Assembly (NCBI GenBank): GCA_024743275.1
Contig: JANSWW010000010.1
Location: forward strand, 145,728-209,727
Source: Alphaproteobacteria bacterium
Lineage (GTDB): Bacteria; Pseudomonadota; Alphaproteobacteria; JANSWW01
DNA: 64,000 nt
Reading direction: 5' to 3'
This document shows positions 21,487-47,787 of the stretch, piece after piece. Made by a program: the position numbers and the translations under genes. Each line of letters opens with the position of its first letter. The stretch's first letter is position 1. The notes beneath the pieces were generated by a model that was not told where the DNA came from, made no database searches, and saw only the letters and a list, made by a program, of their open reading frames with translations.

Positions 21487-22311
21487 TCAGCTATTGCACC
21501 AAACGCTTTGAAGGGACGCCAATATCGTGAAGGGCATTTTACGGCCTCCGAAGTACTCGTCCCATGCATATCGCGCGCCCGGAAACATCTCACTTGAATA
21601 GTCGTCGCAAACGATAATGCCGCCGTCGACCATTCTCGGGACGAAATACTCAAGGGCGACCCGTGTCGGTTCATAGAGATCGAGGTCGATATGAACGAAG
21701 GAAAATCGCAGGTCGTCAGATTGCGCCGATAACGTCTCCTCGACCGGCCCCTTGATGATCTGGACTTCCGGAAAATCCGCTAGGTTCTCGCGCAGGGTCT
21801 CGACCGACGTTTCGGTGAAGATATTGCGGCCGATTTCTGAGCGGACCTGAAAATCCTCGACCAGGGAGACGACGTAGTCCATGGGCGTATAATCGCCGAA
21901 TCCCCCGAAGGTATCGAACAAATACATCCCGGACCCGTTCTCGTTGCGCCCGAGATGGTTGGCCATTTCGAGAATGATCCGCGCCGACGCCCCCCGCCAG
22001 ACGCCACATTCGGCCACGTTCCCAACCGGCGTCTGTCGGAGCAACAAAGCCAGATTCTCAAGGGCCTGATATCGAATTTGGACCTTGGATCCGGTGACAC
22101 CCGATCCAGTCCGAGCCAATGCTTGGGATATCCTCTTGCCAATCGGGAACCCCTCGATCTTCTTCGCGGTGAACATGCGCTCCGCGATGTCGTAGCTGTG
22201 TTCCCCCGCCGCAAATTCTTTGGCGGCGGCATTCGCGCGAACCCGCGCGGTATGCGCCTTTTTCAGATTCTCCTTCGCTGTCGACATTGACTTCCGATCA
22301 ATCCTTCCCAA
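21487..22311 (-). CDS. Class I SAM-dependent O-methyltransferase of the TylF/MycF (macrocin O-methyltransferase) family.
   Basis: Motifs ECGVWRGASARIIL and HIDLDLYEPTRVALEYFVPRMVDGGIIVCDDY. An alternative start lies at the ATG at 22287. Confidence 0.8.
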   Translation of the reverse strand: MGRIDRKSMSTAKENLKKAHTARVRANAAAKEFAAGEHSYDIAERMFTAKKIEGFPIGKRISQALARTGSGVTGSKVQIRYQALENLALLLRQTPVGNVAECGVWRGASARIILEMANHLGRNENGSGMYLFDTFGGFGDYTPMDYVVSLVEDFQVRSEIGRNIFTETSVETLRENLADFPEVQIIKGPVEETLSAQSDDLRFSFVHIDLDLYEPTRVALEYFVPRMVDGGIIVCDDYSSEMFPGARYAWDEYFGGRKMPFTILASLQSVWCNS

Positions 22312-22335
22312 ACGCCGCCACCACCCCGGAGGCGC

Positions 22336-23967
22336 CTACAAATAGGTGCAGCTGTTGCACGGGGCCGCCGCATTGGTTCGACTGCGGATCTTCTCCCGCA
22401 AGGCTCTGAGGCGCGGCTGATTATAGATATCGAGAACACTCTGCTCCTTCACGTCGCCGACGGGCCATTCCCCATGGCCGTCCATGCAGCAGAGCGCCAC
22501 CTCGCCGGTCGACGTTATCGAGACTTCGAACCATCGTTTGCAGGGCAAAGCGGGGACCGATTGCGCGGTGGTGTCCGTCGCGACCTGGGAAATCCAGTCA
22601 TTCCGGGGTGCCACCATGCGTGAAAGATCGGGGAAATTGTCTTTACAGAATGCGAGGAATTCGTCGTCCGCCGACGTCCCGTCCGAAATCCGCGAGACCG
22701 TGGCTGTAAAGCCGGTATCGTGTCCGCGCATAAAAGACTGAAGCGTTTTCAGGCGATCGATCGTCCGTCCGAATGGGATTTTCATCAGGTCTTCATATAC
22801 ATCGGGACGGTGGTCATTCAGCGATACCGTGATTTTTCGAACGTTCCTTAGCGCCGCCAGCTCGTGAAGCTTCTTTTCCGTCATCGCCGATCCGTTGGTA
22901 ATCAGGCTGACACTAGCATTTGGAACCTTTTCTTGGATCAGCCGGATGATCCAAATCAAGCGTTTCTCGAGAAACGGATCACTCACCTTGTAGGGGGCGA
23001 TTTGAATGGGGATGTCACTAGGAATCTGAGAGAGATCGTCGACGATCTTCTCGATCAGCGAATCGGGCATTCGAACCCCGATACGGTCGAGCTGTGAGTA
23101 TGGGCAGAAAGTGCAGTCGGCATTACAGGCGGTAATCGTTTCAAGATGAACAAAGTGTGGATACTCAAGATATTTCTTCCGCGTTCTCAGAATATGCTTC
23201 ACTGCCACACCGTGCCGGGTCAGGAATGACGAGAACCCGGGCCCGGGGTTACGGTCTAGCGGAATATTCTGGTGCTCCGCAAATTCAATCGGTGCTGTCA
23301 AACTATTCACAAGAAAATCATGGCCGTATACCGAGTCTGCGGGAACCTCAATATCCTTTAAGACTTTTGAGAAATACTCCATCCAATACAGATATTCCTT
23401 GAAATTGTATTTCGAGAATATTTCCCAGAAGGCGGAGAATGCTGCCGCCATGTTTTTCTGAAAATACTCACCCGATCTAAATATCTCTTCGAATATTTTA
23501 ATAGAACTATTAAACGGCACAAGATCAGATGTAAAAATAGTCTCCGTATTCAGCGCCAAACTGCGAATGAAGACGTTGTAAGCTAAAGGCTTATACTCTG
23601 AAGACAACTCATCGCTCAATATCGCCAAGGCGGAATATCCGAAAGCCTTCGAGGAGTTTTGCCGCACCAACTCCGCCCGCGCCGCGGCAAGGCATATCAC
23701 CGGATCCGAGATCGGGCCAAGCTTGCCCAGAAACTTCAGAAGTTTATCGGGTTCCTTTTTACTGATCGCCAAGAGCGCATTGAGGATTTGGGTGTCGGCC
23801 GCCTCTATCCCATGGACCTTGATACGTTTTTCCAATAGCTCGAAGAACGCGTCCATTCGGTCCGCCTGGAACAAAAGAGCGAGGCGGTTGCGGTCGTCCG
23901 ATGCGACATCGGCCGGGCGTCGCCGCGCGGTCGGTGACTCGGTCTCTTTGGCGCTGTCCTCGGTCAT
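22336..23967 (-). CDS. Radical SAM protein with a SPASM-like C-terminal Cys cluster and a roughly 260-aa N-terminal extension of unknown function.
   Basis: CxxxCxxC motif in ITACNADCTFCPY. C-terminal cysteines are in CKRW...ALCCMDGHGEW...CNSCTY. The 5' half of the gene is visibly AT-richer than the surrounding DNA. Confidence 0.85.
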   Translation of the reverse strand: MTEDSAKETESPTARRRPADVASDDRNRLALLFQADRMDAFFELLEKRIKVHGIEAADTQILNALLAISKKEPDKLLKFLGKLGPISDPVICLAAARAELVRQNSSKAFGYSALAILSDELSSEYKPLAYNVFIRSLALNTETIFTSDLVPFNSSIKIFEEIFRSGEYFQKNMAAAFSAFWEIFSKYNFKEYLYWMEYFSKVLKDIEVPADSVYGHDFLVNSLTAPIEFAEHQNIPLDRNPGPGFSSFLTRHGVAVKHILRTRKKYLEYPHFVHLETITACNADCTFCPYSQLDRIGVRMPDSLIEKIVDDLSQIPSDIPIQIAPYKVSDPFLEKRLIWIIRLIQEKVPNASVSLITNGSAMTEKKLHELAALRNVRKITVSLNDHRPDVYEDLMKIPFGRTIDRLKTLQSFMRGHDTGFTATVSRISDGTSADDEFLAFCKDNFPDLSRMVAPRNDWISQVATDTTAQSVPALPCKRWFEVSITSTGEVALCCMDGHGEWPVGDVKEQSVLDIYNQPRLRALREKIRSRTNAAAPCNSCTYL

Positions 23968-23994
23968 CGGCGGAGCTTCTTGACTGGTGTTTTC

Positions 23995-24981
23995 TCAATC
24001 CGGGCGGAAATAGGTTCGGTACCACTCTACGAAACGCGGCAGCCCTTCGGCAATTCCAGTACTTGGACTGAAACCGAAAGCCGATTGCGTCGCCCCGATG
24101 TCAGCCCAGGTCGCCTCGACGTCGCCGGGTTGCATAGGGGCATACTCGACGACCGCTTTTCGGCCGATCGATTCTTCCAGAACCGATAGGAAATCCATAA
24201 GACGCTCGGATCGGTTGTTGCCGAGATTGTAGATCGCATGCGGCACGCCGGCCTTGTCCGGCAGAGGCGGCTGACCGAGGCTCGCGCGCAGACCGGCGAC
24301 GATATCGTCGATATAGGTGAAATCCCGCCGCATCTCGCCCCGATTGAACAGTCTGACGGGGCGACCCTCGAAGATCGCCTTGGTGAACAGGAAATAGGCC
24401 ATGTCCGGCCGTCCCCAGGCGCCATAAACCGTGAAGAATCGAAAACCAGTCGTCGGAATCCCGTAGAGACCGGCATAGCTATGGGCCATCACCTCGTTGG
24501 ACTTCTTGGTGGCTCCATAAAACGACCGCGGCGCGTCCGTTCTCTGATCCACGGAGAACGGCATTTCGCGATTGTAGCCGTACACCGACGATGAACTGGC
24601 ATAGATCAGGTGCTCCAGTTCCGGGGCGTTGCGTGCGACCTCAAGCACCGCAAGCATGCCGGTAAGATTGGCGGCGACATAGTCGAACGGGGCATCGATC
24701 GAATGACGCACGCCGGCCTGGGCCGCGAGGTGGACGATCGTCGACACACCCCGCATCCGTCCCAGAAGAGACGAAACGGCGGTGGGACCGTCGCCCAGGT
24801 CGAGATGCAGGAACTCGAAGCTTGGATAGGACTGCAACAGGGCAAGCCGGTCGCGCTTCAATTGGACATCGTAATAACTGTTGAGGGAGTCGACCCCGAT
24901 CACCGGCTCTCCGTCGTCAAGCAGACTCCGGCTGAGATGGAATCCGATGAAACCCGCCGCTCCAGTAATCAGAATCGCCAT
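23995..24981 (-). CDS. NAD-dependent epimerase/dehydratase, resembling UDP-glucuronate 4-epimerase.
   Basis: N-terminal sequence MAILITGAAGFIGFHL...DSLNSYYDVQLK and a YxxxK motif in YGATKKSNE. 328 aa. Confidence 0.85.
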   Translation of the reverse strand: MAILITGAAGFIGFHLSRSLLDDGEPVIGVDSLNSYYDVQLKRDRLALLQSYPSFEFLHLDLGDGPTAVSSLLGRMRGVSTIVHLAAQAGVRHSIDAPFDYVAANLTGMLAVLEVARNAPELEHLIYASSSSVYGYNREMPFSVDQRTDAPRSFYGATKKSNEVMAHSYAGLYGIPTTGFRFFTVYGAWGRPDMAYFLFTKAIFEGRPVRLFNRGEMRRDFTYIDDIVAGLRASLGQPPLPDKAGVPHAIYNLGNNRSERLMDFLSVLEESIGRKAVVEYAPMQPGDVEATWADIGATQSAFGFSPSTGIAEGLPRFVEWYRTYFRPD

Positions 24982-25005
24982 CTGCGCCTCTTCACGTCCC
25001 CCTGG

Positions 25006-26214
25006 CTATGCCGGGCCACCGCCATCAGACTTTTCGATGAAAGCCGTTTGCCGGGGAATGACTACGCGATTTAGGTCGAGGGTGGTAGCGGCATTCTCAC
25101 GGGCGCACTGTTTCAACGCCTCCCTCTTCTGAGCATCCGACAGCAATTCCAAAGTCGCTTCGGCCATCGTCTCCGGGTCACGGGAGTCGAGCGGTTCGGC
25201 CGCCCCGACGCCCACAAAGTCGTCATATGGCCCGCTGGTGGACGCCAGGACCGCACATCCGGAGGCGAGGACCTCCTGAATGGTATCGGGCTGCGCGACC
25301 GGATCGCTCAGGCACAGCATGCATTGGCTGACGCCATAGACGGCCTGGCGCAAATCGCGCGCCGGCATACCGACGAAATGCACCCGTTCCCAATCGACGA
25401 CGGTCTCCAGTTCTTCGTAAAGGGCTTGGCGATAGGTTTGATCCCGGAGCCATCGACCGACCGTCACGTTGTCGCCCCCCGCAACGACAACATGGACCTC
25501 TGGACGGCGCTTCTGGAGTTCCGGGACCATACGCATGAAATCGGGAAACCGGCGACAGGGCTCCAAATGAGGCACGACATACCCAACCACCGCGTCCCCA
25601 GCTTTCAGTTGTCCGCCGTCCGGAAGCGGCAGAACCGCCGTCGGATTCGGCTTGAAGGCCTCGGTGTCGACACCGTGGGGAATGATGTCGATAAGATCGT
25701 GAAAAGGGCGCGGAAAGCACCGGCGTTCGAATTGGCTGCCGGCGAAAGCGCCGTCGCAAGCCTCCAAAGTCAATAGGGAAGGCGCACCGGTAACGATTGC
25801 CTCGATACGGTCGTCGATGGAGATGTCCGGCATGTCACTCGGAATACCGGGCAGAGGAAACAAGCCTACCAGTATCCGCGCGGCGGGGAAGACGTCGCGC
25901 ATCAGCATCAATTCGCCACGGTGATCCGATCCGAAGACCACGTCCGGTAGCCAGCCATCCTGACGGAGCCTCTTGGCCGCCCCGGCGGCCTCCATCGCGA
26001 ACCCGAAGGCCCGGACCATCCCTCGCATCAAGTGAAGAACGTCCCGCTTCGCCTCATCCGACAAGGGATAGGTTTCCACCCTGATGGTCGGGGGAAACCG
26101 AAGCGCCTGCTGCGCATGCGTGATGATCGCAACGTCGTGACCCCTCCGGTTCAGCGCTCGTGTCAACGGCAGGAAGCGCCCCAGAGCATCCTGGGCAACG
26201 ATCAGAATCCGCAT
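25006..26214 (-). CDS. Glycosyltransferase, GT-B fold, family 4-like.
   Basis: Starts MRILIVAQD at the ATG at 26214. The C-terminal half has a typical GT4 layout (VVAGGDN...FVGM...LSDP...EVLASGCAV). The ORF track start at 26253 would overlap the upstream gene. Confidence 0.75.
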   Translation of the reverse strand: MRILIVAQDALGRFLPLTRALNRRGHDVAIITHAQQALRFPPTIRVETYPLSDEAKRDVLHLMRGMVRAFGFAMEAAGAAKRLRQDGWLPDVVFGSDHRGELMLMRDVFPAARILVGLFPLPGIPSDMPDISIDDRIEAIVTGAPSLLTLEACDGAFAGSQFERRCFPRPFHDLIDIIPHGVDTEAFKPNPTAVLPLPDGGQLKAGDAVVGYVVPHLEPCRRFPDFMRMVPELQKRRPEVHVVVAGGDNVTVGRWLRDQTYRQALYEELETVVDWERVHFVGMPARDLRQAVYGVSQCMLCLSDPVAQPDTIQEVLASGCAVLASTSGPYDDFVGVGAAEPLDSRDPETMAEATLELLSDAQKREALKQCARENAATTLDLNRVVIPRQTAFIEKSDGGGPA

Positions 26215-26227
26215 GCCATGGGCTCGT

Positions 26228-27496
26228 TCATCGCCCCTTCGCCTTGGTCCCATTGACCACGTCGGAGATCAGGGCGACATGTTGATCGAGGCACACACTG
26301 TGGAGGTCGTAGCGCTTCACCACCAATTCCCGGGCGGCTTTCGCCCGGACCCGGGCGGCCTCCGGATCGGACAGCGTTCGGTCCACGGCCTCGGCCAATG
26401 CGGCGGGATCGAAGAAATCGACCAATAGGCCGGTCTCGCCGTCTTTCATGACTTCCGTCACCGGCTGTGTCGCGGAGGCGACGATCCGGCATTCCGCCGA
26501 CATCGCCTCCAGGAAAGACCAGGAAAGGACGAAGGGATAGGTCAGATATACGTGACAGCTCGACACCTGGAGCATCGTGATGAAGTCTTCATAGGCAAGC
26601 TTGCCTATGAAGTGGACCCGCGACAGATCGATCTTGTCGCCGACCTCGGCCATCATGATTTCGCGATAAGTCCCGTTTTCGGGGCGTTTGCCATAACTGA
26701 CATCGTCGCCGCCGACGATCAGCACACGGGCGTTGGGCCGGCGCCTTAGAATCTCGGGCAGCGCACGCATGAAGACGTGGAACCCACGATAAGGCTCCAG
26801 GTTCCGATTGACGAAGGTGATGATCTCGTCTTCTTGCCGGCTGACCGTCTTTTGTTGTCCGTCGCTCGAGAAGGTTAACGTGGCGTCCGGATTAGGGACA
26901 AGTCTCTGTGTCTCGATGCCATCATGGATCGTATCGATGAAAGGACGGAACGGCTTCGGAAACTGGGATCGTTGCCACTCCGTTGGACTGACCCCCCAAT
27001 CCATGGCGTCAAGACTGAGCAGGATGGGTGCGTTCTTCACCCGAATTCGAAATTGGTCGTCGAATTCGTTAGGGAACTCCGGGTCGAAATCCACATCCGC
27101 ACCTTTGGAATTATAATAAAACTCCAAAAAAGTGAGCTGCTTGGCGTCTGGGAAGACTTCTTTCAAAAACATCGTTTCCCCCCATCCGTGATGACCACAG
27201 ATGATATCGGGGGTGAACTTCTGCTTTAACTCGAGGAGAGCCCGGACCAATGTCTGGCCGCGCCGGATCTGACCCTCGAACGGTTTGATGTATTTGTGCG
27301 TGTTCGGGCCGGGACCGGGCGGTGTTTTATAGCCGAGGATGGGAAAGGGCGTGTTCTTTTGCTTTGGAATGTTCCGGGATTCGCCGATCCCAATGACCTG
27401 CGCGTTCATGGTTCGCGCTATTTTGGGCGCCATGTGACGGTATTGGCCCGGAAAGTTCTGATGAACGAAAAGGATTCGAACAGAAGGGCTGGTCAT
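26228..27496 (-). CDS. Glycosyltransferase, GT-B fold, family 4-like.
   Basis: Starts MTSPSVRILFVHQNFPGQY at the ATG at 27496. C-terminal layout LIVGGDDVSYG...HFIGKL...YLTYPFVLSWSFLEAMSAECRIVAS is typical. Confidence 0.75.
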   Translation of the reverse strand: MTSPSVRILFVHQNFPGQYRHMAPKIARTMNAQVIGIGESRNIPKQKNTPFPILGYKTPPGPGPNTHKYIKPFEGQIRRGQTLVRALLELKQKFTPDIICGHHGWGETMFLKEVFPDAKQLTFLEFYYNSKGADVDFDPEFPNEFDDQFRIRVKNAPILLSLDAMDWGVSPTEWQRSQFPKPFRPFIDTIHDGIETQRLVPNPDATLTFSSDGQQKTVSRQEDEIITFVNRNLEPYRGFHVFMRALPEILRRRPNARVLIVGGDDVSYGKRPENGTYREIMMAEVGDKIDLSRVHFIGKLAYEDFITMLQVSSCHVYLTYPFVLSWSFLEAMSAECRIVASATQPVTEVMKDGETGLLVDFFDPAALAEAVDRTLSDPEAARVRAKAARELVVKRYDLHSVCLDQHVALISDVVNGTKAKGR

Positions 27497-27600
27497 GAAG
27501 ACGCCTTGACGCAAACGGACGGACACGCAACAGAAAAACAGCACCGGCGGGTCGGTTTGACTACCCGACCCGCCGGATGCAAAAGCTGGCTGGGAATGCC

Positions 27601-28359
27601 TCAGGCAGCGCCTTTCATGCTCTCCGGAGTCATCCGAACATTGTAGATGATCAATCGCCGGTCGATACCTTCCTCGGTGATCGGCTCGACTCCATGGAAC
27701 GAGTCGCTGGTCTTGGGGAACATGAACAGACGGTTGGGGATGAAATCCGCCGTCGACACGCGGTCGAAAAGCTCCCGCTTGTGGTGCGGCCCGCCCTTAC
27801 ACTTGAAATTCGGATCCTTCGGCCGGTAGGTCGACGTGCCGTATTGGCGGTTCGAATCATCCTCCGGAGCATAGAACAACAAGGTAATGACGCGGTGAGG
27901 CGCATCGGTATGCGGCCCGATCGCATAGTTGGTGCGGTCGCTGATCAGAAGACCGTCACACTTCATCTGAATTCCCTTGCCCTTGTTCTTTTCGAGATAC
28001 CCGTCCTCCGCCAGCCTGCGCATGATCGGTTCCCGGAGTTTCCCAACGATGCCGTTCACGAAATCCTGCGAGGTTAGAATGCTCCAGAAATCGTTCCAGA
28101 AAGCCCGCCGCTTTTCATCCAGGCGCTTGAGATGTTCCTCTTCGAACAGCACGACATGGCGATCCTTGTATCCGGACCGTCCGGTGGACGCGAGAGACTG
28201 GTAGGTATCCGTCTCGGGGAAGTTCTCCAGGATCTGCTGGTAGTAGTCGGGATCGAACACGTTGTCGACGACCACATGCGGAAACGGATCGGTTTCCACC
28301 GTGGCGTCGCCAATCTTTTGCAGCATATGGGACTTAACGGCGTCGGAAGACATATTCAC
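27601..28359 (-). CDS. 2-oxoglutarate/Fe(II)-dependent oxygenase-like protein.
   Basis: HxD...H facial-triad candidates are GPHTDAPH and SFHGVEP. 252 aa. The family call is tentative. Confidence 0.55.
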   Translation of the reverse strand: MNMSSDAVKSHMLQKIGDATVETDPFPHVVVDNVFDPDYYQQILENFPETDTYQSLASTGRSGYKDRHVVLFEEEHLKRLDEKRRAFWNDFWSILTSQDFVNGIVGKLREPIMRRLAEDGYLEKNKGKGIQMKCDGLLISDRTNYAIGPHTDAPHRVITLLFYAPEDDSNRQYGTSTYRPKDPNFKCKGGPHHKRELFDRVSTADFIPNRLFMFPKTSDSFHGVEPITEEGIDRRLIIYNVRMTPESMKGAA

Positions 28360-29728: not shown

Positions 29729-29756
29729 GACATTCTCCAGAATTCTAATAAGTGCC

Positions 29757-30809
29757 TCAGGCGACGCCACGCCGCAAGCAATCATGGATGTGGATGAGGC
29801 CGACGAGCTTTTGGTCGTCGATCACCAGAAGACTGGTGATCCGTTTGTCGTTCATAATACGAACGGCTTCGGCGGCCAACATGTTCGATGGGACTGCCTG
29901 CGGAGTCCGCGACATGATTTCCTGAACCGGTTTACCCATAACATCTGGCGCCATGTGACGCCGGAGATCGCCATCCGTAAAAATGCCCAGGAGATTGATG
30001 TTTCCCGACTTGTTGATCTGATTGACGACGATCGCACAGCCATAGCTTTTCGACGTCATGTGCAACAAGACATCTCCGACGACCGTCGTCGGGGAGACCA
30101 GGGGCAACTGCTTCGTGGGGAGCATCAGATCGGCGACCCGCAAGAGCTTCTGCCCCAATCGGCCACCGGGATGGAAATTGCTGAATCCATCGCTCGTAAA
30201 GCCCATCCGTTCGAGCAAGGCGATCGCCAAGGCGTCACCAAGCGCCATCATCATGGTCGTCGATGTGGTTGGGGCCAATCCCATGGGGCAGGCTTCGGGA
30301 ACGTCTGGAAGCTGGAGGCACACGTCCGCCTCCGATCCAATGAGCGAGGCGCGGTTGCTGGTAATCGAAATCATCGGAATGGCGAAACGCTTGCAGTATT
30401 GCGTGATGTCGGCCAGCTCCGATGTATTGCCCGAATTGGACAAAAGGACCACGGCATCTCCCTTGACGATCATGCCGAGGTCGCCATGCGATGCCTCGCC
30501 AGGATGGACGAACATCGCCGGCGTACCCGTCGATGCCAGCGTCGCCGCGATCTTGCGGGCGACATGACCGCTCTTGCCCATTCCGGACAACACAACACGG
30601 CCAGACAGTCCCGCGATCAAGTCGACAGCCTCGACGAAATCGGCGCCGATCGTATCCGCCAGCGTCTCTACCGCCCGCGCTTCCTGACGCAAGGTACGCG
30701 TCGCGGCAGCGATGGGATCGAACGCGTTATCGGATACCGCCTCGAGCCTGCCGTCATGTTCGGTGGACGTAATTGCCGTCGACATCGTACTTCTTCCCAC
30801 TTCCGGCAT
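29757..30809 (-). CDS. kpsF: Arabinose-5-phosphate isomerase (KpsF/GutQ family: one SIS domain plus two CBS domains).
   Basis: SIS motif VVLSGMGKSGHVARKIAATLASTGTPAMFVHPGEASHGDLG and C-terminal CBS pair. The start codon shares one base with the HlyD stop codon (TGATG). Confidence 0.9.
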   Translation of the reverse strand: MPEVGRSTMSTAITSTEHDGRLEAVSDNAFDPIAAATRTLRQEARAVETLADTIGADFVEAVDLIAGLSGRVVLSGMGKSGHVARKIAATLASTGTPAMFVHPGEASHGDLGMIVKGDAVVLLSNSGNTSELADITQYCKRFAIPMISITSNRASLIGSEADVCLQLPDVPEACPMGLAPTTSTTMMMALGDALAIALLERMGFTSDGFSNFHPGGRLGQKLLRVADLMLPTKQLPLVSPTTVVGDVLLHMTSKSYGCAIVVNQINKSGNINLLGIFTDGDLRRHMAPDVMGKPVQEIMSRTPQAVPSNMLAAEAVRIMNDKRITSLLVIDDQKLVGLIHIHDCLRRGVA

Positions 30810-41798: not shown

Positions 41799-44700
41799 TT
41801 AGCTGAGGGTGAAGAAGCCGTTACCGTTATTGGTAACCGTTCCGTCGAAGCCACTCAACTGGACGACATAGGTGTTGCTGATACCGCCGCCGAGAACCAG
41901 AAGGTCGTTGGCGCTATCGAAGATGAAGATACCACCCGCCGTGGCGTTCGCCGTCTGGGTCAAGCCAGCCGAGAAGGCCGACGCGACGTTCGTCTGAGCG
42001 ACTTCGGCCGAAGCCGCGCCACTGAAGGCGGTGACCACACCGGCCACACCGGAGAAGTCAAGGACATCGCCGGCGGTCGCCCCGGAGATCACCTGAGCAC
42101 TCAGCGCCGTGAAGGCGGAGAGGACGCTCTGCAGCGAGCCACCGGAGGTAACGGCGATGGCGGTGCTGCCCGACAGACCGACCCGATACTGGACGTCCGA
42201 CCGGTTGAAGCCCGTGAACCCAGATACGCTGATCTGGAGATCCTGAGCCTGCACCAGGCCGTTACCGTCGACATCGATCGCCACCCGGTTGCTGCCCGTG
42301 AGGAACAGCATTTCACCCTGCGCCCCGGACAGGAGCGAGATACCGTTGGCGGCGTCCGTGGCATCACCGACATCCGTCAGGTTGAAGTTGACGCCGGCGA
42401 CATCCGGGAGGGTGATGATCAACTCGTCGGCGCTGGCCGAGAAGTCGGTGATCACGTCCGTGTTGGTGCCGTTGGACGGGCTGGCCGTGGTGTTCCCCGT
42501 GAAGGAGAAGCTGTCGTTGCCGTCACCACCGGTCAGGGTATCCGCACCGGCTTCACCGACGAGGCTGTCGGTACCGGACCCGCCGAGGATGCTGTCCGAG
42601 TTGGAACCGCCGAGCAAGGTGTCGTTGCCGAGACCACCGATCAGGGTTTCAACACCGGCACCACCGACGAGGCTATCGGCCCCGGCACCGCCGGTGACGA
42701 GAACGGTGGTTGCCGTCGTCGCTTCGTTGGAGCCCGTGAAGGTGAAGGCCGCCGACTGAGCGCTGGCGTCGACAGTGAGGGAGGCCCCGCTGACCACGTT
42801 CGCATCGTTGGTCACCAGGGTAAGGGCGCCGCCAGAACCGGTGATCACGATGTTCTCGATGGCCACCACGCTGGCACCCAGCGTCAGCGTACCGGTGCTG
42901 AAGCTGGAGGTGTTGAAGACCAGCGTATCGGTGCCGCCATTCCCGTCGACATCGTCGGTCGTGGAGAACACGGCCGTGTAGCCCGTCAACGTGCCGCCGA
43001 CATTCGCGAAGGTGAAGGTGTCGTTGCCGGCACCACCATCGAGGCTGTCCGCGGTAAGGTTACCCGTCGTGATGTTGAGCGAGTTGGCCGTGGAGAGGTC
43101 CACCCCATTCACAACCAGCCCACCCGACGTGGCACCCGACACATCGCCGCGATCCTCGATATCGGCGATCGTCAAGGACGTCACACCGAGGGTCGTCATC
43201 ATCCCGTCCGTGACCGTGATCTGCGACGCGGAGGCCTGGCCGAACTGCAGGGTTTCAATCCCGCTGATCGTCCCGAGCATGCCGGCCGAGATCGAGAAGT
43301 TGGACGCGGAAGCACCAGAGAACCGAAGGACGTCGCCCGCCGTGGCGCTGTTCGCCCCACCGACGATGGTTGTCGCCGTGGTGAGAGCCGCCGCGGTCAC
43401 GACCTGGAAGATGTCGTCACCGTCGCCACCAATCAGGCTATCGGCCGAATTGACGTTGAACAGGTCGTTTCCGGCTCCGCCGATCAAGGTGTCGGCACTC
43501 GCACCACCCGTGAAGGTGTCGTCACCGGACCCGCCGACGACGCTGTAGATGCCGTTCGCGGTTTCAGCCGCACCGTTGAAGGTGAAGGCGGCGGACTGAG
43601 TAGACGCGTCGACCGAAACGGTCGCGCCCGTGGCGGCGTTCGCGTCGTTGGTAACGAGGGTCATCGCACCACCGGAACCGGTGATCACAATGTTCTCGAT
43701 GGCAACCACGCTAGCACCCAACGTCAGCGTACCGGTGCTGAAGCTGGTGGTGTTGAAGATCAGCGTGTCGGTGCCGCCATTGCCGTCGACGTCGTCGTTG
43801 GTCGAGAACACGGCCGTGTAGCCGGTCAACGTTCCGCCGACATTGGCGAAGGTGAAGGTGTCGTTACCGGCACCACCGTCCAGGCTATCCGCGGTCAGGT
43901 TCCCGGTGGTCACGTTGACAGCATTGGCCGTCGTCAAGGCGGACGCCGCAACCGTCAAGCCGCCCGAGGTGGCGGTCGACAAATCACCACGATCTTCGGT
44001 GTCGTTGATCGTCAGGGTAGTAAGGCCAAGGGTGGTCATCATGGTGTCGGTGACCGTGATCGACGCCGCGGACCCTTGACCAAACTGAAGCGTCTCGATG
44101 CCGCTGACCGAACCGAGCATCCCAGCCGTGATCGCGAAGTTGGACGCTGAGGCACCGGAGAACAGCAGGACGTCACCCGCCGTGGAGCTGTTCGCCCCAC
44201 CGACGATCGTGGTCGCGGTCGTAAGAGCGACGCCGGTCACGACCTGGAAGACGTCGTCGCCGTCGCCACCAACAAGGCTGTCGGCGGAATTGACGTTGAA
44301 CAGATCGTTTCCGGCCCCACCGATCAAGGTATCCGCACTGGAACCACCCGTGAAGGTGTCGTTCCCGGAACCGCCGGTCACGCTGTAGACACCCAGAGCG
44401 GTTTCAGCGGCACCGTTGAAGGTGAAGGCGGTTGCCAGGTTGGAGGCGTCGACGTTCAAGACACCGCCGGTGGTGGCGATATTGGCATTGTTGGTGACCA
44501 GGGTCATCGACCCGCCGGTGCCGGTGATTACGATATTCTCAATGGCGACCACGCTGGCCCCCAGCGTCAGCGTACCGGTGCTGAAGCTGTTGGTGTTGAA
44601 GATCAGCGTATCGGTACCGCCGTTACCGTCGACATCGTCGTCGGTTGAGAACACGCCCGTATAACCGGTCAACGTGCCGCCAACATTCGCGAAGGTGAAG

Positions 44701-47489
44701 GTGTCGTTGCCAGCACCGCCATCGAGGCTGTCGGCGGACAAGTTGCCCGAGGTGATCGAAAGGCTGTTGGCCGTTGTGACGGAGGCACCGGCGACCACGA
44801 GACCACCGGTAGCGTTCGCTGTGTCGCTAATGTTGATGGTCGTGACGCCAAGCGCGGTGAACGTCGAATCGTTGACGGTCACCGTGTTGAGCGTCGAAAC
44901 ACCGCCGAACTGGAGCGTTTCAACTTCGCTGATGTTCGAGAAGGCACCTGCGGTGAAGGTGTAGACGGACGCGCCCGAGAAATCCAACACGTCGGTCCCA
45001 CTGCCGCCGACAACGGTATCGGACGTCAGTTCGTCCGTGGAGAGCACGAACACATCGTTCCCGTCGCCACCGACGAGGCTGTCGGACCCCGTCTGGCCGG
45101 CGATTGTGTCGGCACCGGCACCACCAAGGATGGTGTCGTTGCCGGCCGCACCGGTCAGGTTGTCGTCCCCGTCACCGCCGACGATCGAGTCGGCGCTGGT
45201 GCCGCCCTGAACCTGGTCGTTGCCGCCGCCGGACGAAATGGTGTTGCCGCCGGAACCACCGAGGATCGAGTCCGCGCCGTCGCCGGTCGTGATCGACTGG
45301 GTCGTGCTGGCACCCCGAACGATGAAGGAGTTGGAGCTGCCGGTGGAATCGAGGTTTTCGAACGCCTGCAGGATCGGACCATCGCTACCGGTCAGCTCGC
45401 CACGGGTCGTGTCCCCGTCGAGATCGGACTGGTTGATGTTGCCGTTGTTGACAGCGGCAGCACCGGCGGAAACCGCCGTGACGGTGCCGTTGACGGTGAC
45501 GGTCGTCCCGCCCGAACCGCCGGTGAAGTCGACCACCTGGACGGTGGACGTGGTCGGAAGCAGGATCAGGGTGTCGGTCCCGGTCCCGCCCGAAGCGTTG
45601 GACTCGGCGCCGCGGATCGTGATGGTGTCGTCCCCGGCACCACCGTCGATCTGGTCGGCACCGCCGCCGCCGTCGATCAAGTCGTTGCCGCCGGCACCGC
45701 TCAGCGTTTCCGCGGCCGTGGAGCCGATCAGCGTGTCGTTGCCCGACGTACCGCCGGTTTGGATGATCGCGGTTACCGTGACCGAAGCGGTCGAGGTGGC
45801 GCCGAAGCCGTCCGTCACCGTGTACGTGAACGTGGCATCGCCGGCCTGGGACGGCGTGAAGGTAATGGAGAGACCGTCGGAGGCAATCTCGGCGACACCA
45901 GTGGACGGCTGGCTAACCGAAGAAACCGTCAAGGTCTGGTTGGCACCCCCGGTGATGTCCGCATCCGTGTCGTTGGACAGAACGTTGATGGTGGTCGCCT
46001 GACCGACCAGGATGCTGCCCTGGGAATCGGCGGTGGCGACCGGCGCCGTGTTGGTCACGTCGATGCTGGCGGTCGCTTCGACAGAATCCGTGCCGTCGGA
46101 GACGGTGAAGGTGAAGCTATCATCGGCTGCCTGACCGGCGTTGACCGTGTAAGACGCGGTCCCGTCGCCGTTGTTGACGACCGTCCCGCTCGAGGCCGCG
46201 CCGGTGGTGAACGTCAGCGTGTCGCCGTCCGGATCGGTCGCGAAGGTATTGAGATCGATGGTCAGCGTGTTACCGGCGACCACGGTCGCGGCACTGCCGG
46301 CCACCGTCGCCGGCGCGTCATTGACGGCCGCGAGGGTGATGGTGGCGGTCTGAGCGGCGGAATTCTGATTGCCGTCGTTCGCCGTGAACTGGAACGACGC
46401 CGTGCCGTTGAAATCGGCGGTCGGCGTGAACGTGAAGGTACCGTCGCTGTTGACCACGGCGGCGCCGCCGGTGGCGGAACCGTCGACCAGCGCGAAGGTC
46501 AGGGTATCGCCCTCGGTGTCGGTCGCGGTCAGCGTGCCGGTCGCGGTCACGTCTTCCGTTCCGGAGACGGAGAACGCGGCGGCGGTCGGGGCGGCGTTGA
46601 TGACCACGGAGACGGAACCGGTGTCCGTGCCACCGTTGCCGTCGCTGACGACATAGGTGTAGGAGCCGGAGGTCGAGCCGTCGGCCGGCGCGAAGACGAC
46701 GCTGGAGCCGACCAGACCGACCTCACCGCCCGTGGCGTTGCCGACGGAGGAGATGGTCAGGGTATCGCCATTGGCGTCGGTGTCGTTCGACAGAAGAGCG
46801 CCGGAGGAGGTGACGATCGTGGCCGAACCGGGCACGCCGACAACCGTATCGGCGCCGGCGACCGGAGCAGAATTGAAATCGCCGGCGTCGGCGACCGCGA
46901 CCGGGTTCACGAAGGCCCGACCTTCGGACTGACCGAACGCCTGGAAGTGGGCCAGCGCGGTGGCGGTGGTGATCCCGGCGGTGACCAGGTCGGGGTTGAA
47001 GGTCAGGTAGTCGTCGACGTCGAAGGAGAGCAAACGACCTTCGGAACTGCCGAACGTGTTGTAATGCTCAAGCGCGTTCGCCGTCGTGATCCCCGCGGAA
47101 ACGAGATCCGGGTTGGCGTCGAGGTAGAGCTGTGCGTTGAACTCGACCAGACGATTCTCGGACGCACCGAACGCAACGAAGTGCGCCAGGGCGTCGGCAT
47201 CGGACAGGCTCGCCAAATCGGCGTTGGCGGCCTTGTACTCCGTGGCGTCGAAGTTGAACTTACGCCCTTCGGACCGGCCGAAGGCGTTGAAGTGCGTGAG
47301 CGCGTCGGCGTCGGACAGGCTGGCCAGGTCCGCATTCAGCGACTTGTAGACGGTAGCGTCGAACGCGAGAGCGCGCCCTTCGCTAAAACCAAACTGGGCA
47401 TAGTGAGTCGCAGCAGTCGCCTCCGTTACGCCGGCCGTCACCAAATCAGGATTGGCGGCCAGGTAGGAGGCAGCGTTGAACGTTGTCAT
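41799..47489 (-). CDS. Giant (about 1.9k aa) RTX adhesin or S-layer-like protein. Domain order: N-terminal 5x ANPD module, cadherin-like/VCBS-type Ig repeats, RTX blocks, then three roughly 280-aa tandem units.
   Basis: Composition is rich in T/G/A/S/D/N/V. Repeats of the type NDAP...D.DGD.LT resemble cadherin-like or tandem-95 repeats. There are many GGxGxD nonapeptides and no signal peptide. The ATG at 47489 is preceded by GGAG; the ORF track starts at 47504. Confidence 0.9.
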   Translation of the reverse strand: MTTFNAASYLAANPDLVTAGVTEATAATHYAQFGFSEGRALAFDATVYKSLNADLASLSDADALTHFNAFGRSEGRKFNFDATEYKAANADLASLSDADALAHFVAFGASENRLVEFNAQLYLDANPDLVSAGITTANALEHYNTFGSSEGRLLSFDVDDYLTFNPDLVTAGITTATALAHFQAFGQSEGRAFVNPVAVADAGDFNSAPVAGADTVVGVPGSATIVTSSGALLSNDTDANGDTLTISSVGNATGGEVGLVGSSVVFAPADGSTSGSYTYVVSDGNGGTDTGSVSVVINAAPTAAAFSVSGTEDVTATGTLTATDTEGDTLTFALVDGSATGGAAVVNSDGTFTFTPTADFNGTASFQFTANDGNQNSAAQTATITLAAVNDAPATVAGSAATVVAGNTLTIDLNTFATDPDGDTLTFTTGAASSGTVVNNGDGTASYTVNAGQAADDSFTFTVSDGTDSVEATASIDVTNTAPVATADSQGSILVGQATTINVLSNDTDADITGGANQTLTVSSVSQPSTGVAEIASDGLSITFTPSQAGDATFTYTVTDGFGATSTASVTVTAIIQTGGTSGNDTLIGSTAAETLSGAGGNDLIDGGGGADQIDGGAGDDTITIRGAESNASGGTGTDTLILLPTTSTVQVVDFTGGSGGTTVTVNGTVTAVSAGAAAVNNGNINQSDLDGDTTRGELTGSDGPILQAFENLDSTGSSNSFIVRGASTTQSITTGDGADSILGGSGGNTISSGGGNDQVQGGTSADSIVGGDGDDNLTGAAGNDTILGGAGADTIAGQTGSDSLVGGDGNDVFVLSTDELTSDTVVGGSGTDVLDFSGASVYTFTAGAFSNISEVETLQFGGVSTLNTVTVNDSTFTALGVTTINISDTANATGGLVVAGASVTTANSLSITSGNLSADSLDGGAGNDTFTFANVGGTLTGYTGVFSTDDDVDGNGGTDTLIFNTNSFSTGTLTLGASVVAIENIVITGTGGSMTLVTNNANIATTGGVLNVDASNLATAFTFNGAAETALGVYSVTGGSGNDTFTGGSSADTLIGGAGNDLFNVNSADSLVGGDGDDVFQVVTGVALTTATTIVGGANSSTAGDVLLFSGASASNFAITAGMLGSVSGIETLQFGQGSAASITVTDTMMTTLGLTTLTINDTEDRGDLSTATSGGLTVAASALTTANAVNVTTGNLTADSLDGGAGNDTFTFANVGGTLTGYTAVFSTNDDVDGNGGTDTLIFNTTSFSTGTLTLGASVVAIENIVITGSGGAMTLVTNDANAATGATVSVDASTQSAAFTFNGAAETANGIYSVVGGSGDDTFTGGASADTLIGGAGNDLFNVNSADSLIGGDGDDIFQVVTAAALTTATTIVGGANSATAGDVLRFSGASASNFSISAGMLGTISGIETLQFGQASASQITVTDGMMTTLGVTSLTIADIEDRGDVSGATSGGLVVNGVDLSTANSLNITTGNLTADSLDGGAGNDTFTFANVGGTLTGYTAVFSTTDDVDGNGGTDTLVFNTSSFSTGTLTLGASVVAIENIVITGSGGALTLVTNDANVVSGASLTVDASAQSAAFTFTGSNEATTATTVLVTGGAGADSLVGGAGVETLIGGLGNDTLLGGSNSDSILGGSGTDSLVGEAGADTLTGGDGNDSFSFTGNTTASPSNGTNTDVITDFSASADELIITLPDVAGVNFNLTDVGDATDAANGISLLSGAQGEMLFLTGSNRVAIDVDGNGLVQAQDLQISVSGFTGFNRSDVQYRVGLSGSTAIAVTSGGSLQSVLSAFTALSAQVISGATAGDVLDFSGVAGVVTAFSGAASAEVAQTNVASAFSAGLTQTANATAGGIFIFDSANDLLVLGGGISNTYVVQLSGFDGTVTNNGNGFFTLS
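42650..45090 (-). repeat. Three tandem 840-843 bp coding repeats (about 280 aa each) inside the giant RTX gene.
   Basis: The segments starting at 42841, 43681 and about 44524 (gtgatcac[g/a]atgttctcgatgg...cagcgtaccggtgctgaagctg...) align with high nucleotide identity by eye. The protein unit runs GGAGNDLFNVNSADSL.GGDGDD.FQVV...GNLTADSLDGGAGNDTFTFANVGGTLTGYT...ENIVITG. Confidence 0.85.
46917..47480 (-). repeat. Five tandem ANPD repeats at the extreme N-terminus of the giant RTX protein.
   Basis: Cores YLAANPDLVTAG, YKSLNADLASLS, YKAANADLASLS, YLDANPDLVSAG and YLTFNPDLVTAG. Confidence 0.8.
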
Positions 47490-47787
47490 GTCAATTCGCT
47501 CCAAGTTTCTTTTTCAGTGTTAGCGAGAAGCCTGCCATGCCCTAGGCACACTGCGACTTCAGGGGTCCCCTAAACGTACCTTTGGCCGTAACCTACGTGT
47601 TCTGCGACCGCGAAACAAGGGACTTTTTAAAGGATTGCGAAGGCTTCACCTTCATAAATGTGGCGGAAATGCATCACATTGACTCGGCCACATGTCGTGT
47701 TGGCGGACGATGCCTCGCCAACCGGGGGAGTGTCGGTGTTAACCTTTCCCCAATTCTCCGATGCGCCGGTGCCGAAGACGGAACCCA

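What the first reader, a model, noticed from the sequence alone, without database searches (positions are those of the whole stretch)
21487..47504. 26-kb co-directional array linking a giant RTX protein, TPR-glycosyltransferases, a T1SS pair and glycan biosynthesis genes, with translational coupling of the T1SS to kpsF
**Gene order.** All genes from 47489 down to 21487 lie on the minus strand with short gaps. In order they are:
1. giant RTX protein
2. TPR-GT9 protein
3. double TPR-GT9 protein
4. GT8-like glycosyltransferase
5. T1SS ABC transporter
6. T1SS membrane fusion protein
7. kpsF
8. dual methyltransferase
9. oxygenase-like protein
10. GT4
11. GT4
12. epimerase
13. radical SAM protein
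14. TylF-type methyltransferase

**Coupling.** ABC/MFP and MFP/kpsF share one-base stop/start overlaps (TAATG at 32185, TGATG at 30809). The secretion genes are therefore embedded in the glycan operon rather than merely adjacent to it. The dual methyltransferase and the oxygenase-like gene overlap by 26 nt.

**Known parallel.** In Caulobacter crescentus, the S-layer gene rsaA is followed by its T1SS genes rsaD and rsaE, and then by the O-antigen genes needed to anchor RsaA.

**Inference.** This locus may be a larger variant of that logic. One glycan would anchor or modify not only a giant surface protein but also a set of exoenzymes that share the ANPD module.
Basis: partly seen in the sequence, partly recalled or inferred. 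Interest (0 to 1): 0.8.

Follow-up and report, generated by a model that had tools for sequence, protein, structure and literature searches.

The report
RTX protein glycosylation-and-secretion gene cluster
A secretion pump for large calcium-binding surface proteins sits inside a block of sugar-making and sugar-attaching genes, most likely so that the exported protein is sugar-decorated or held on a sugar layer; this extends known systems and is untested.

Summary
Fourteen minus-strand genes (21487-47504) have the stated order. The TAATG and TGATG junctions exist. The MFP/kpsF TGATG junction is conserved in the only closer relative found (46-59% identity).

Structure prediction confirms three GT9-like GT-B domains fused to TPRs.

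Comparative data refine the interpretation:
- Two Thalassobaculum genomes and one metagenome contig keep the core order: RsaA-like RTX protein, two TPR-GT9 proteins, then T1SS or sugar genes.
- More distant members of this TPR-GT family lie in flagellin loci beside nonulosonate genes, the setting of FlmG. Others lie in a phage structural module and beside kdsA/kpsF.
- The array holds no lipid-carrier glycan machinery.

My best reading (0.45) is cytoplasmic O-glycosylation of the giant RTX protein, possibly with a Kdo-type sugar, before T1SS export.

- a second T1SS pair at 48702-52074;
- two distinct classes of C-terminal secretion domain;
- that the "ANPD" repeat belongs to a very large family without a Pfam model (about 36,000 clusters), not linked to TPR-GTs in the relatives examined.

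I rate it a new variant of known kinds, of moderate-to-good interest, with no experimental support.

The parts
41799..47489 (-). Giant RTX protein (1896 aa). It has three N-terminal ANPD repeats, four Big_9/cadherin-like domains, about 25 RTX nonapeptides and a class-A C-terminal secretion domain.
   Evidence: Pfam. ATG and upstream region. Repeat positions. C-terminal similarity to L088 and L087 RTX proteins, z = 8-11.
38880..41708 (-). TPR942: N-terminal TPR array plus a C-terminal GT9-like GT-B domain (residues ~586-907).
   Evidence: Pfam TPR. AlphaFold pLDDT 91.5. Foldseek best matches WaaF, WaaC and TibC. No TM segment.
34834..38802 (-). TPR1322: two TPR + GT9-like units in one protein. 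The independent gene call starts at 38595 (1253 aa).
   Evidence: Both units align to the TPR942 C-terminal region at 30% and 26% identity. Pfam GT9 E 0.028 on the last unit. Gene call.
34021..34824 (-). GT8-like (GT-A, DxD) glycosyltransferase. The likely start is 34710 (229 aa). A paralogue lies at 1968-2696.
   Evidence: Weak Pfam GT8. 48% identity to the paralogue. Homologues next to TPR-GT9 genes in 10 of 80 metagenome loci, and in L087 and L173.
32185..33957 (-). T1SS-1 ABC transporter (PrtD type, no C39 domain).
   Evidence: TIGR01842 616 bits against a cut-off of 510. 42% identity to ABC2.
30809..32185 (-). T1SS-1 membrane fusion protein. Its start overlaps the ABC stop (TAATG).
   Evidence: TIGR01843 361 bits. 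Junction. Best homologue only 46% identical.
29757..30809 (-). KpsF/GutQ-family arabinose-5-phosphate isomerase (SIS + 2 CBS). TGATG overlap with the MFP, or a start 24 nt downstream.
   Evidence: The same junction occurs in L002.
28334..29785 (-). Dual methyltransferase (Methyltransf_23 + FkbM).
   Evidence: Pfam. Homologues beside TPR-GT9 genes in 12 of 80 loci.
27601..28359 (-). 2OG-Fe(II) oxygenase-like protein. It overlaps the methyltransferase gene by 20-26 nt.
   Evidence: Pfam 24.3 bits, below the cut-off. The methyltransferase/oxygenase pair is conserved in L124, L144, L149 and L168.
26228..27544 (-). GT4b (PF12000 + Glycos_transf_1), soluble.
   Evidence: Pfam E 2e-58. Homologues at 43-52% identity lie beside T1SS genes in 5 of 80 genomes.
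25006..26253 (-). GT4a (PF12000 + Glycos_transf_1), soluble.
   Evidence: Pfam. No TM segment.
23995..24981 (-). NAD-dependent sugar epimerase/dehydratase.
   Evidence: Pfam E 6e-47.
22336..23967 (-). Radical SAM/SPASM protein with an unassigned N-terminal region of about 260 aa.
   Evidence: Pfam. NCBIfam gives only sub-threshold hits.
21487..22311 (-). TylF-type (sugar) O-methyltransferase.
   Evidence: Pfam E 1e-16.
18364..21444 (+). Convergent pair flanking the array: an unassigned 359-aa protein and a membrane-bound PglF/WbpM-type dehydratase.
   Evidence: Pfam Polysacc_synt_2 E 3e-106. Three TM segments.
48702..52074 (+). Second T1SS pair: ABC2 48702-50621 and MFP2 50701-52074. It is divergent from the giant RTX gene.
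   Evidence: TIGR01842 756 bits and TIGR01843 400 bits. GC3 0.80-0.84, like the RTX genes.
4117..17693 (-). Five further RTX proteins: subtilase, choice-of-anchor-I/5'-nucleotidase, cyclophilin, CAP and a 400-aa RTX protein. Four of them carry 4-5 ANPD repeats. Four (all but cyclophilin) share a class-B C-terminal secretion domain.
   Evidence: Pfam. Repeats. C-terminal classes.

Best explanation
The array is a decorate-and-export locus for a T1SS-secreted surface protein.

**Proposed mechanism.**
1. The giant RTX protein is recognised in the cytoplasm by the TPR arrays of two FlmG-like glycosyltransferases, which carry three GT9-like GT-B catalytic domains in all.
2. These enzymes O-glycosylate it from soluble nucleotide sugars.
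3. The soluble GT8-like and GT4 enzymes extend the glycan. The methyltransferases, the oxygenase-like protein, the radical-SAM enzyme and the epimerase tailor the sugars.
4. KpsF feeds the Kdo (octulosonate) pathway, so a Kdo-type sugar is a candidate donor.
5. The embedded PrtD/AprE-type ABC-MFP pair (T1SS-1) then exports the modified protein. The second pair (T1SS-2) probably serves the exoenzymes, which have a different C-terminal signal.

**Shown.** Gene content and order, the junctions, the GT9-like fold, conserved synteny and the contexts of relatives.

**Inferred.** The acceptor (the RTX protein), the donor sugar, the timing before export and the assignment of substrates to the two pumps.
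For: 1. **Architecture.** The proteins combine an N-terminal TPR array with a C-terminal GT-B domain. This is the architecture of FlmG, a cytoplasmic flagellin O-glycosyltransferase whose TPR binds the acceptor (PMC7591256; bioRxiv 10.1101/2023.12.03.569772). Structural neighbours include TibC, a GT9-like protein O-heptosyltransferase.

2. **Contexts of relatives of the GT domain.**
- P0189 (33% identity) lies between the fliF and flgE operons, beside NeuB/nonulosonate genes.
- P0195 lies in flagellin-flaG-fliD-[TPR-GT]-fliS.
- L093 and L122 also have flagellar neighbours.
- P0190 lies beside the major capsid gene of an SU10-like phage, with sugar genes.
- P0196 lies beside kdsA + kpsF.

3. 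**Conserved synteny.**
- Two Thalassobaculum genomes share the order RTX protein (class-A C-terminus), TPR-GT, small ORF, TPR-GT, ABC, MFP, sugar genes.
- L087 has a GT8-like gene, an RTX protein and two TPR-GT genes.

4. **No lipid-carrier route.** No phosphoglycosyltransferase, flippase, polymerase, ligase or Wzm/Wzt was found in the array. All GTs lack TM segments.

5. **Composition.** GC3 groups T1SS-1 with the glycan and TPR-GT genes (0.63-0.76). T1SS-2 groups with the RTX genes (0.78-0.86).

6. **Precedents.**
- Ser/Thr-O-Kdo on flagellin (bioRxiv 10.1101/2020.06.03.131540).
- Glycosylated RTX proteins SwmA and oscillin (PMC3034196).
- Glycosylated T1SS-type S-layers suspected in methanotrophs (PMC11784148).

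7. **Other T1SS-GT links.** GT4b homologues sit beside T1SS genes in five unrelated genomes.
Against: - There are no biochemical data.
- Sequence homology to Caulobacter FlmG itself could not be tested.
- None of 80 more distant TPR-GT9 loci (30 of them at least 8 kb) has a T1SS or RTX gene. The association is therefore confined to a few lineages.
- The closest T1SS-1 relative (L002) carries ABC-MFP-kpsF next to GT2/GT4/GT61 and Wzm/Wzt genes. No RTX or TPR-GT gene lies within its 15 kb. That pattern fits a polysaccharide partner.
- Only kpsF of the Kdo pathway is present.
- A membrane-bound PglF/WbpM-type dehydratase next door also fits lipid-linked glycans.
- It is not known whether a T1SS can pass a glycosylated polypeptide.
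Confidence: 0.45

Rival explanations
1. Anchor-glycan model, which is the reader's. The sugar genes build a cell-surface polysaccharide (O-antigen or a Kdo-containing capsule). The secreted RTX proteins bind it non-covalently, as RsaA binds smooth LPS in Caulobacter. The ANPD repeats would be the glycan-binding module.
For: - RsaA is anchored by smooth LPS.
- L002 couples ABC-MFP-kpsF with Wzm/Wzt and O-antigen-type GTs.
- ANPD repeats sit at the N-terminus of the giant protein. In the exoenzymes they lie between the catalytic domain and the secretion signal, where anchoring modules usually sit.
- The repeat also occurs fused to GT4 domains, which fits a glycan-related role.
- ANPD-RTX genes lie directly after T1SS MFP genes in L040 and L054.
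Against: - The window holds no lipid-carrier assembly or export genes.
- TPR-fused GTs of this family occur in flagellin and phage-virion contexts, where no polysaccharide is involved.
- The Thalassobaculum and L087 RTX proteins next to TPR-GTs lack ANPD repeats.
- The ANPD fold has no known glycan-binding relative.
Confidence: 0.3
2. Co-located surface island without a direct molecular link. Variable cell-surface genes (glycan, adhesin, exoenzymes, pumps) cluster and are co-regulated. The glycan and the RTX proteins do not touch.
For: - Lower GC3 in the block 18-42 kb suggests a separately acquired cassette.
- The TPR-GT9/GT8/FkbM/2OG cassette is modular and is found with many unrelated neighbours.
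- kpsF lies next to a T1SS in 0 of 80 other T1SS loci.
Against: - The order RTX, TPR-GT, TPR-GT, ABC, MFP is conserved in Thalassobaculum at only 30-40% protein identity to the window.
- The TGATG coupling of MFP and kpsF is conserved at 46-59% identity.
- GT4b-T1SS adjacency recurs.
Confidence: 0.12
3. T1SS-1 is not a protein exporter. It moves a Kdo-containing glycolipid or polysaccharide made by the neighbouring genes. T1SS-2 handles all the RTX proteins.
For: - There are two paralogous pumps.
- The array has no other glycan exporter.
- An MFP1 relative (37% identity) lies in KpsS/KpsC-like (Capsule_synth)-ABC-MFP-OEP with no RTX gene nearby.
- L002 has no RTX gene within 15 kb.
Against: - Both proteins score well above the curated T1SS cut-offs.
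- L002 already has Wzm/Wzt for glycan export.
- Thalassobaculum has a single pump directly after an RTX substrate and TPR-GTs.
- I know of no PrtD/HlyD-type polysaccharide exporter.
Confidence: 0.06

Closest known systems
Caulobacter crescentus rsaA-rsaD-rsaE plus adjacent O-antigen genes (S-layer secretion and LPS anchoring)
   Same: An RTX-type surface protein is followed co-directionally by a PrtD-type ABC and an MFP, then by sugar-biosynthesis genes. No TolC-like gene lies in the locus.
   Different: - Three GT genes carrying TPR-GT9-like domains lie between substrate and pump.
- kpsF is translationally coupled to the MFP.
- No O-antigen assembly or export genes are present.
- The substrate is a cadherin/Big_9 adhesin-like protein rather than a known S-layer protein.
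- A second T1SS and five more RTX proteins lie in the same island.
FlmG-class flagellin O-glycosyltransferases (Caulobacter, Brevundimonas)
   Same: Both have an N-terminal TPR and a C-terminal GT-B domain, are cytoplasmic, and are encoded beside a secreted substrate and ulosonic-acid genes. Relatives of the window's GT domain occupy flagellin loci.
   Different: The neighbouring substrate is an RTX protein exported by a T1SS, not flagellin exported by the flagellar T3SS. One protein carries two TPR-GT units. The associated sugar gene is kpsF rather than neuB. Homology to FlmG itself was not tested.
TibC/AAH (BAHT) autotransporter heptosyltransferases and LPS heptosyltransferases WaaC/WaaF (GT9)
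   Same: These are the best structural matches to the GT domain. TibC is a cytoplasmic GT9-like enzyme that modifies a secreted adhesin.
   Different: Sequence identity is only 10-12%, and Pfam GT9 is sub-threshold. The known enzymes lack TPR arrays. The window has no ADP-heptose genes. The iron-finger and dodecamer features of TibC were not examined.
T1SS genes inside rhizobial exopolysaccharide clusters (R. leguminosarum prsDE/plyA; S. meliloti expD1D2/ExpE1). This comparison rests on my own knowledge plus PMC3034196.
   Same: A PrtD/HlyD pair is embedded among polysaccharide genes and secretes Ca-binding proteins connected to that glycan.
   Different: In the rhizobial systems the substrates are glycanases or EPS-associated proteins. 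No TPR-GT or kpsF coupling is described there.
Glycosylated RTX surface proteins SwmA (Synechococcus) and oscillin (Phormidium)
   Same: They are RTX-type surface proteins reported to be glycosylated (PMC3034196).
   Different: The enzymes responsible and the gene arrangement are not defined in what I read. They are cyanobacterial.

Membership tests
Type I secretion system (PrtD/AprD-type ABC + HlyD/AprE-type MFP) | ABC half-transporter of the PrtD subfamily above the curated score | tested here: met
   TIGR01842 gives 616 bits (ABC1) and 756 bits (ABC2) against a cut-off of 510.
Type I secretion system (PrtD/AprD-type ABC + HlyD/AprE-type MFP) | HlyD-family T1SS adaptor above the curated score | tested here: met
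   TIGR01843 gives 361 bits (MFP1) and 400 bits (MFP2) against a cut-off of 209.
Type I secretion system (PrtD/AprD-type ABC + HlyD/AprE-type MFP) | TolC-like outer-membrane component | tested here: not met
   No OEP/TolC hit among the window ORFs scanned. It may be encoded elsewhere, as RsaF is in Caulobacter.
Type I secretion system (PrtD/AprD-type ABC + HlyD/AprE-type MFP) | Neighbouring substrates with RTX repeats and a C-terminal signal | tested here: met
   Six RTX proteins are present. Two classes of C-terminal domain exist.
Caulobacter-type S-layer/O-antigen locus | Substrate gene followed co-directionally by ABC and MFP | tested here: met
   Three GT genes intervene.
Caulobacter-type S-layer/O-antigen locus | Adjacent genes encode lipid-linked O-antigen assembly or export | tested here: not met
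   No PGT, Wzx/Wzy, Wzm/Wzt or ligase in the array or window. All GTs are soluble.
Caulobacter-type S-layer/O-antigen locus | Secreted protein is held on the cell by that glycan | not testable with these tools
   Needs fractionation of mutants.
FlmG-class cytoplasmic protein O-glycosyltransferase | N-terminal TPR plus C-terminal GT-B domain, no TM segment or signal peptide | tested here: met
FlmG-class cytoplasmic protein O-glycosyltransferase | Family members encoded in flagellin loci with nonulosonate genes | tested here: met
   This holds for relatives at 27-33% identity, not for the window's own genes: L090, L175/L176, L093 and L122.
FlmG-class cytoplasmic protein O-glycosyltransferase | Sequence homology to C. 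crescentus FlmG | not tested
FlmG-class cytoplasmic protein O-glycosyltransferase | Transfers a CMP-ulosonic acid to Ser/Thr of a bound protein | not testable with these tools
   Only context is available: kpsF here, and kdsA + kpsF in L173.
CAZy GT9 | Match to the GT9 profile (PF01075) | tested here: inconclusive
   The window domains give E 0.028 or no hit. Relatives pass: L144 scores 24.3 bits against 22, and P0193 has a precomputed hit.
CAZy GT9 | GT-B fold closest to heptosyltransferases | tested here: met
   Best Foldseek matches are 1psw, 3tov, 2h1h and 6dfe, with E 8e-9 to 6e-7 and TM 0.53-0.59.
KpsF/GutQ arabinose-5-phosphate isomerase | SIS + two CBS domains and the curated family score | tested here: met
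   Pfam. TIGR00393 gives 290 bits against 204. The KdsD equivalog model is below its cut-off (313 against 505).

The most novel reading that the evidence does not exclude
A dedicated protein-glycosylation pathway coupled to type I secretion. FlmG-like TPR-GT9 enzymes put a Kdo-type, methylated glycan on an RTX adhesin in the cytoplasm before a dedicated ABC/MFP pump exports it. The widespread ANPD repeat, which has no Pfam model, is a glycan-binding module that retains co-secreted exoenzymes on that glycoprotein or glycan coat.
Probability: 0.25. Interest if true: 0.8.

Novelty: new variant of a known kind. Interest (0 to 1): 0.6.

Why it matters
T1SS substrates are generally treated as unmodified (or acylated) polypeptides that fold outside the cell. 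A conserved cassette of acceptor-binding glycosyltransferases between an RTX substrate and its pump would add glycosylation to type I secretion. It would extend the FlmG principle (TPR-guided cytoplasmic O-glycosylation) beyond flagellin. It would also give a genetic handle on the poorly understood glycosylation of RTX S-layers and adhesins such as SwmA, oscillin and the methanotroph layers. Thalassobaculum sp. OXR-137 has a complete genome sequence with the same core arrangement, so the idea may be directly testable there. Separately, the ANPD repeat is a very large family with no Pfam model and no assigned function.

Tried and rejected
- **Genome scan with MFP1 alone** found no relative. The profile scan gave only generic T1SS loci at 41% identity or less, no closer than the paralogue in the window.
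- **Sequence searches for the GT domain.** PDB sequence searches of the TPR proteins and of the isolated GT domain gave only TPR hits or noise. Pfam and NCBIfam did not name the GT domain, the GT8-like protein or the ANPD repeat.
- **Promoter and terminator scan** gave counts equal to shuffled controls, so it says nothing about operons.
- **ANPD fold.** The AlphaFold model is helical but has no PDB neighbour.
- **ANPD as the TPR-GT acceptor site** is rejected as unsupported. The RTX proteins beside TPR-GTs in relatives lack the repeat.
- **Phage origin of L144, L148 and L112.** I suspected this from ORF sizes. It was wrong for L144, whose neighbours are a GAF-MshE ATPase and a GAF-HD protein.
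- **Same genome for L002 and L087?** They come from the same sample, but tetranucleotide correlation of 0.93 does not settle it.
- **Literature.** Searches found no paper that links TPR glycosyltransferases with T1SS or RTX proteins.
- **Organism.** It was not identified. Best hits and composition point to an alphaproteobacterium near Rhodospirillales/Thalassobaculaceae.
Full report
**Observation**

The window is a 64-kb piece of a 74-kb Logan contig (SRR18498044). From 21487 to 47504 there are 14 consecutive minus-strand ORFs.

These are the TylF methyltransferase, radical SAM/SPASM, NAD epimerase, two PF12000-type GT4s, a Methyltransf_23 + FkbM dual methyltransferase and KpsF (SIS + 2 CBS, TIGR00393 290 bits). 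They also include an AprE/HlyD-type MFP (TIGR01843 361 bits), a PrtD-type ABC (TIGR01842 616 bits), two TPR proteins and a 1896-aa Big_9/cadherin/RTX protein.

Three labels were weak at sequence level:
- The "oxygenase" scores 24.3 bits, below the Pfam cut-off.
- The "GT8-like" protein has E 0.09. It is 48% identical to a second copy at 1968-2696 that scores E 5e-5.
- "GT9" has a best E of 0.028.

I tested the last one structurally. An AlphaFold model of the C-terminal 322 residues of the 942-aa TPR protein, built on 16 sequences, has pLDDT 91.5 and pTM 0.91. Its best PDB neighbours are the GT9 heptosyltransferases WaaF, a Veillonella GT9 and WaaC, followed by the protein O-heptosyltransferase TibC. 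The 1322-aa protein carries two copies of this domain.

**Junctions**

TAATG at 32185 and TGATG at 30809 are in the sequence. An independent gene call on the contig starts kpsF 24 nt further down and trims several other starts. On this window alone, the one-base MFP/kpsF overlap is therefore a matter of start-codon choice.

The closest relative, L002, has the same CCCTGATG junction, and there the gene caller chose the overlapping start. I take the coupling as real.

Promoter and terminator scans were at chance level. Whether the 26 kb is one transcript is unknown.

1. A second PrtD/AprE pair lies at 48702-52074 on the + strand, divergent from the giant RTX gene. It is 42% (ABC) and 39% (MFP) identical to the embedded pair.
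2. The island runs from about 0.5 kb to 52 kb. Upstream lie five more RTX proteins: subtilase, choice-of-anchor-I/5'-nucleotidase, cyclophilin, CAP and a 400-aa protein. Cobalamin genes mark the right edge.
3. The last 130 residues of the RTX proteins fall into two unrelated classes.
   - Class A holds the giant protein and the RTX proteins of L087 and L088 (z = 8-11).
   - Class B holds the subtilase, nucleotidase, CAP and 400-aa proteins (z = 5-15).
   - Similarity across classes is z of 1.8 or less.
4. GC3 separates the RTX genes and T1SS-2 (0.78-0.86) from the glycan genes, TPR-GTs and T1SS-1 (0.63-0.76).

**Synteny of the pump**

MFP1 has no close relative. The best of 5.8 billion proteins is 46% identical. 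GTDB representative genomes give 41% or less.

The 46% hit lies in L002, with the order GT4, ABC, MFP, kpsF (59% identical), methyltransferases. Wzm/Wzt and GT2/GT61 genes lie upstream.

Among 80 generic T1SS loci, none has kpsF within 10 kb. Five have a GT4b homologue (43-52% identity) next to the pump. Examples are Sedimenticola (RTX, ABC, MFP, GT4b) and Niveispirillum (RTX ... GT4b, ABC, MFP).

**Synteny of the TPR-GT genes**

Thirteen homologues of the GT domain were found. Their contexts are the most informative result.

- In Thalassobaculum sp. OXR-137 and a second Thalassobaculum genome the order is RTX protein (681 or 728 aa), TPR-GT, small ORF, TPR-GT, ABC, MFP, then epimerases and a C-methyltransferase. 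The two genomes are 77-87% identical over these proteins.
- A metagenome contig, L087, has a GT8-like gene, an RTX protein (751 aa) and two TPR-GT genes.
- These RTX proteins are beta-roll proteins with the class-A C-terminus. They have no ANPD repeats.
- More distant members sit in flagellar loci. One lies between fliF and flgE beside NeuB genes. One lies in flagellin-flaG-fliD-[TPR-GT]-fliS. Two more have FliF/FliG or FlgE as neighbours.
- One sits next to the major capsid gene of an SU10-like phage with sugar genes.
- One, without TPR, sits beside kdsA + kpsF together with a GT8-like gene and methyltransferases.
- A profile scan of metagenomes gave 80 further loci. None has T1SS or RTX genes. 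Ten have the GT8-like gene, twelve an FkbM methyltransferase and four the oxygenase-like gene next door. L144 has three TPR-GT9 genes beside a GAF-MshE ATPase.

The TPR-GT9/GT8-like/FkbM/oxygenase set therefore behaves as a portable cassette that attaches to different export or assembly systems.

**Interpretation**

FlmG of Caulobacter is a 596-aa protein with an N-terminal TPR domain that binds flagellin and a C-terminal GT-B domain. It transfers pseudaminic or legionaminic acid from a soluble donor in the cytoplasm (PMC7591256; bioRxiv 10.1101/2023.12.03.569772).

The family found here has the same architecture and occupies the same kind of locus. I could not align it with FlmG itself.

Four lines of evidence favour direct O-glycosylation of the giant RTX protein before export:
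- the conserved position of these genes between an RTX substrate and its pump;
- the structural kinship to TibC;
- the absence of any lipid-carrier glycan machinery in the array;
- the fact that all the GTs are soluble.

kpsF here, and kdsA + kpsF in L173, suggest a Kdo-type donor. Ser/Thr-O-Kdo has been reported for Maf enzymes (bioRxiv 10.1101/2020.06.03.131540). Glycosylated RTX proteins are known (SwmA and oscillin, PMC3034196). They are suspected for T1SS-type S-layers of methanotrophs (PMC11784148). I put this reading at 0.45.

**Rivals**

- **Anchor glycan (0.3).** L002 links the pump and kpsF to Wzm/Wzt-type genes. The ANPD repeats sit where anchoring modules usually sit. A PglF/WbpM-type membrane dehydratase lies next to the array. 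The two models can both be partly true.
- **Co-location only (0.12).** Conserved gene order and the conserved TGATG junction argue against it.
- **T1SS-1 exports a glycan (0.06).** A KpsS/C-like gene lies beside a related pump in L004. The curated T1SS scores, the Thalassobaculum arrangement and Wzm/Wzt in L002 argue against it.

**ANPD repeat**

Twenty units of about 38 residues occur in five RTX proteins. The consensus is F-D-x3-Y-L-x-A-N-P-D-V-A-A-A-G-x-T-x3-A-x2-H-Y-x2-F-G-x2-E-G-R.

- Pfam has no model for it.
- A profile search finds 36,031 representative clusters at E of 1e-3 or less, and 24,067 at 1e-10 or less. Some proteins exceed 2000 aa.
- It occurs with RTX, beta-helix and GT4 domains.
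- The predicted fold is a string of small helical units with no PDB neighbour.
- Its function is open.

**Verdict**

The finding is a new variant of known kinds: a Caulobacter-type RTX/T1SS/glycan locus combined with a FlmG/TibC-type protein glycosyltransferase. It may be testable in Thalassobaculum sp. OXR-137, which has a complete genome with the same core arrangement. Interest 0.6.

Noticed in passing
window 48702-52074 (+): A second complete PrtD/AprE-type T1SS pair lies divergent from the giant RTX gene. It is 42% (ABC) and 39% (MFP) identical to the embedded pair, and its GC3 matches the RTX genes.
   Followed up: partly
window 4117-17693 and 41799-47489: The ANPD repeat (about 38 aa, 20 units in five RTX proteins) belongs to a family of about 36,000 representative clusters. 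It has no Pfam model and no PDB fold match. It also occurs fused to GT4 glycosyltransferase domains.
   Followed up: partly
last 130 aa of the RTX ORFs (window 4117-17693 and 41799-47489): There are two unrelated classes of C-terminal secretion domain. The giant RTX protein resembles the Thalassobaculum and L087 RTX proteins. The four exoenzyme-type proteins form a second class. This hints that each T1SS pair has its own clients.
   Followed up: partly
window 12877-14715 (-): The cyclophilin-RTX protein ends in ANPD repeats and fits neither C-terminal class. How it is recognised for secretion is unclear.
   Followed up: no
window 18000-42000: The glycan, TPR-GT and T1SS-1 block has lower GC (0.52-0.62) and lower GC3 (0.63-0.79) than the flanking RTX genes (GC3 0.78-0.86). 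This suggests separate acquisition or faster turnover.
   Followed up: partly
L019, L044, L059, L081, L082: Homologues of GT4b (PF12000 type, 43-52% identity) lie next to T1SS ABC/MFP genes in five unrelated proteobacterial genomes. In Sedimenticola the gene follows the MFP gene after a 9-nt gap.
   Followed up: partly
L091 (GCA_040383985.1 contig): A TPR-GT9 homologue is encoded one small ORF downstream of the major capsid gene of an SU10-like phage. Formyltransferase, aminotransferase, epimerase and GT8-like genes lie nearby. Virion glycosylation is possible.
   Followed up: no
L144, also L148 and L112: In L144 three tandem TPR-GT9 genes with GT8-like, FkbM, TylF-like and oxygenase-like genes lie beside a GAF-MshEN-T2SSE ATPase and a GAF-HD protein. 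L148 and L112 have upstream ORFs of similar size that I did not annotate. The acceptor is unknown.
   Followed up: partly
L004/L005/L006: A KpsS/KpsC-like (Capsule_synth) gene lies directly upstream of ABC-MFP-OEP genes related to T1SS-1 (37% identity). No RTX gene lies within 10 kb.
   Followed up: no
window 11876-12880 (+): A BNR_2 (sialidase-like) gene lies on the opposite strand among the RTX exoenzyme genes. This is notable given the ulosonic-acid (kpsF) theme.
   Followed up: no
window 22336-23967 (-): The radical SAM/SPASM protein has an unassigned N-terminal region of about 260 aa and the lowest GC of the array (0.52). Whether it acts on a sugar or a peptide is not known.
   Followed up: no
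window 17746-18144 (-): A small HTH_3 (XRE-type) regulator gene sits between the RTX exoenzyme genes and the glycan block.
   Followed up: no
window 52897-55191 (+): The 764-aa ORF is probably not a gene (GC3 0.59 against GC2 0.69). The real genes there are cobC-like (52404-53030) and cobT (53450-54907).
   Followed up: yes
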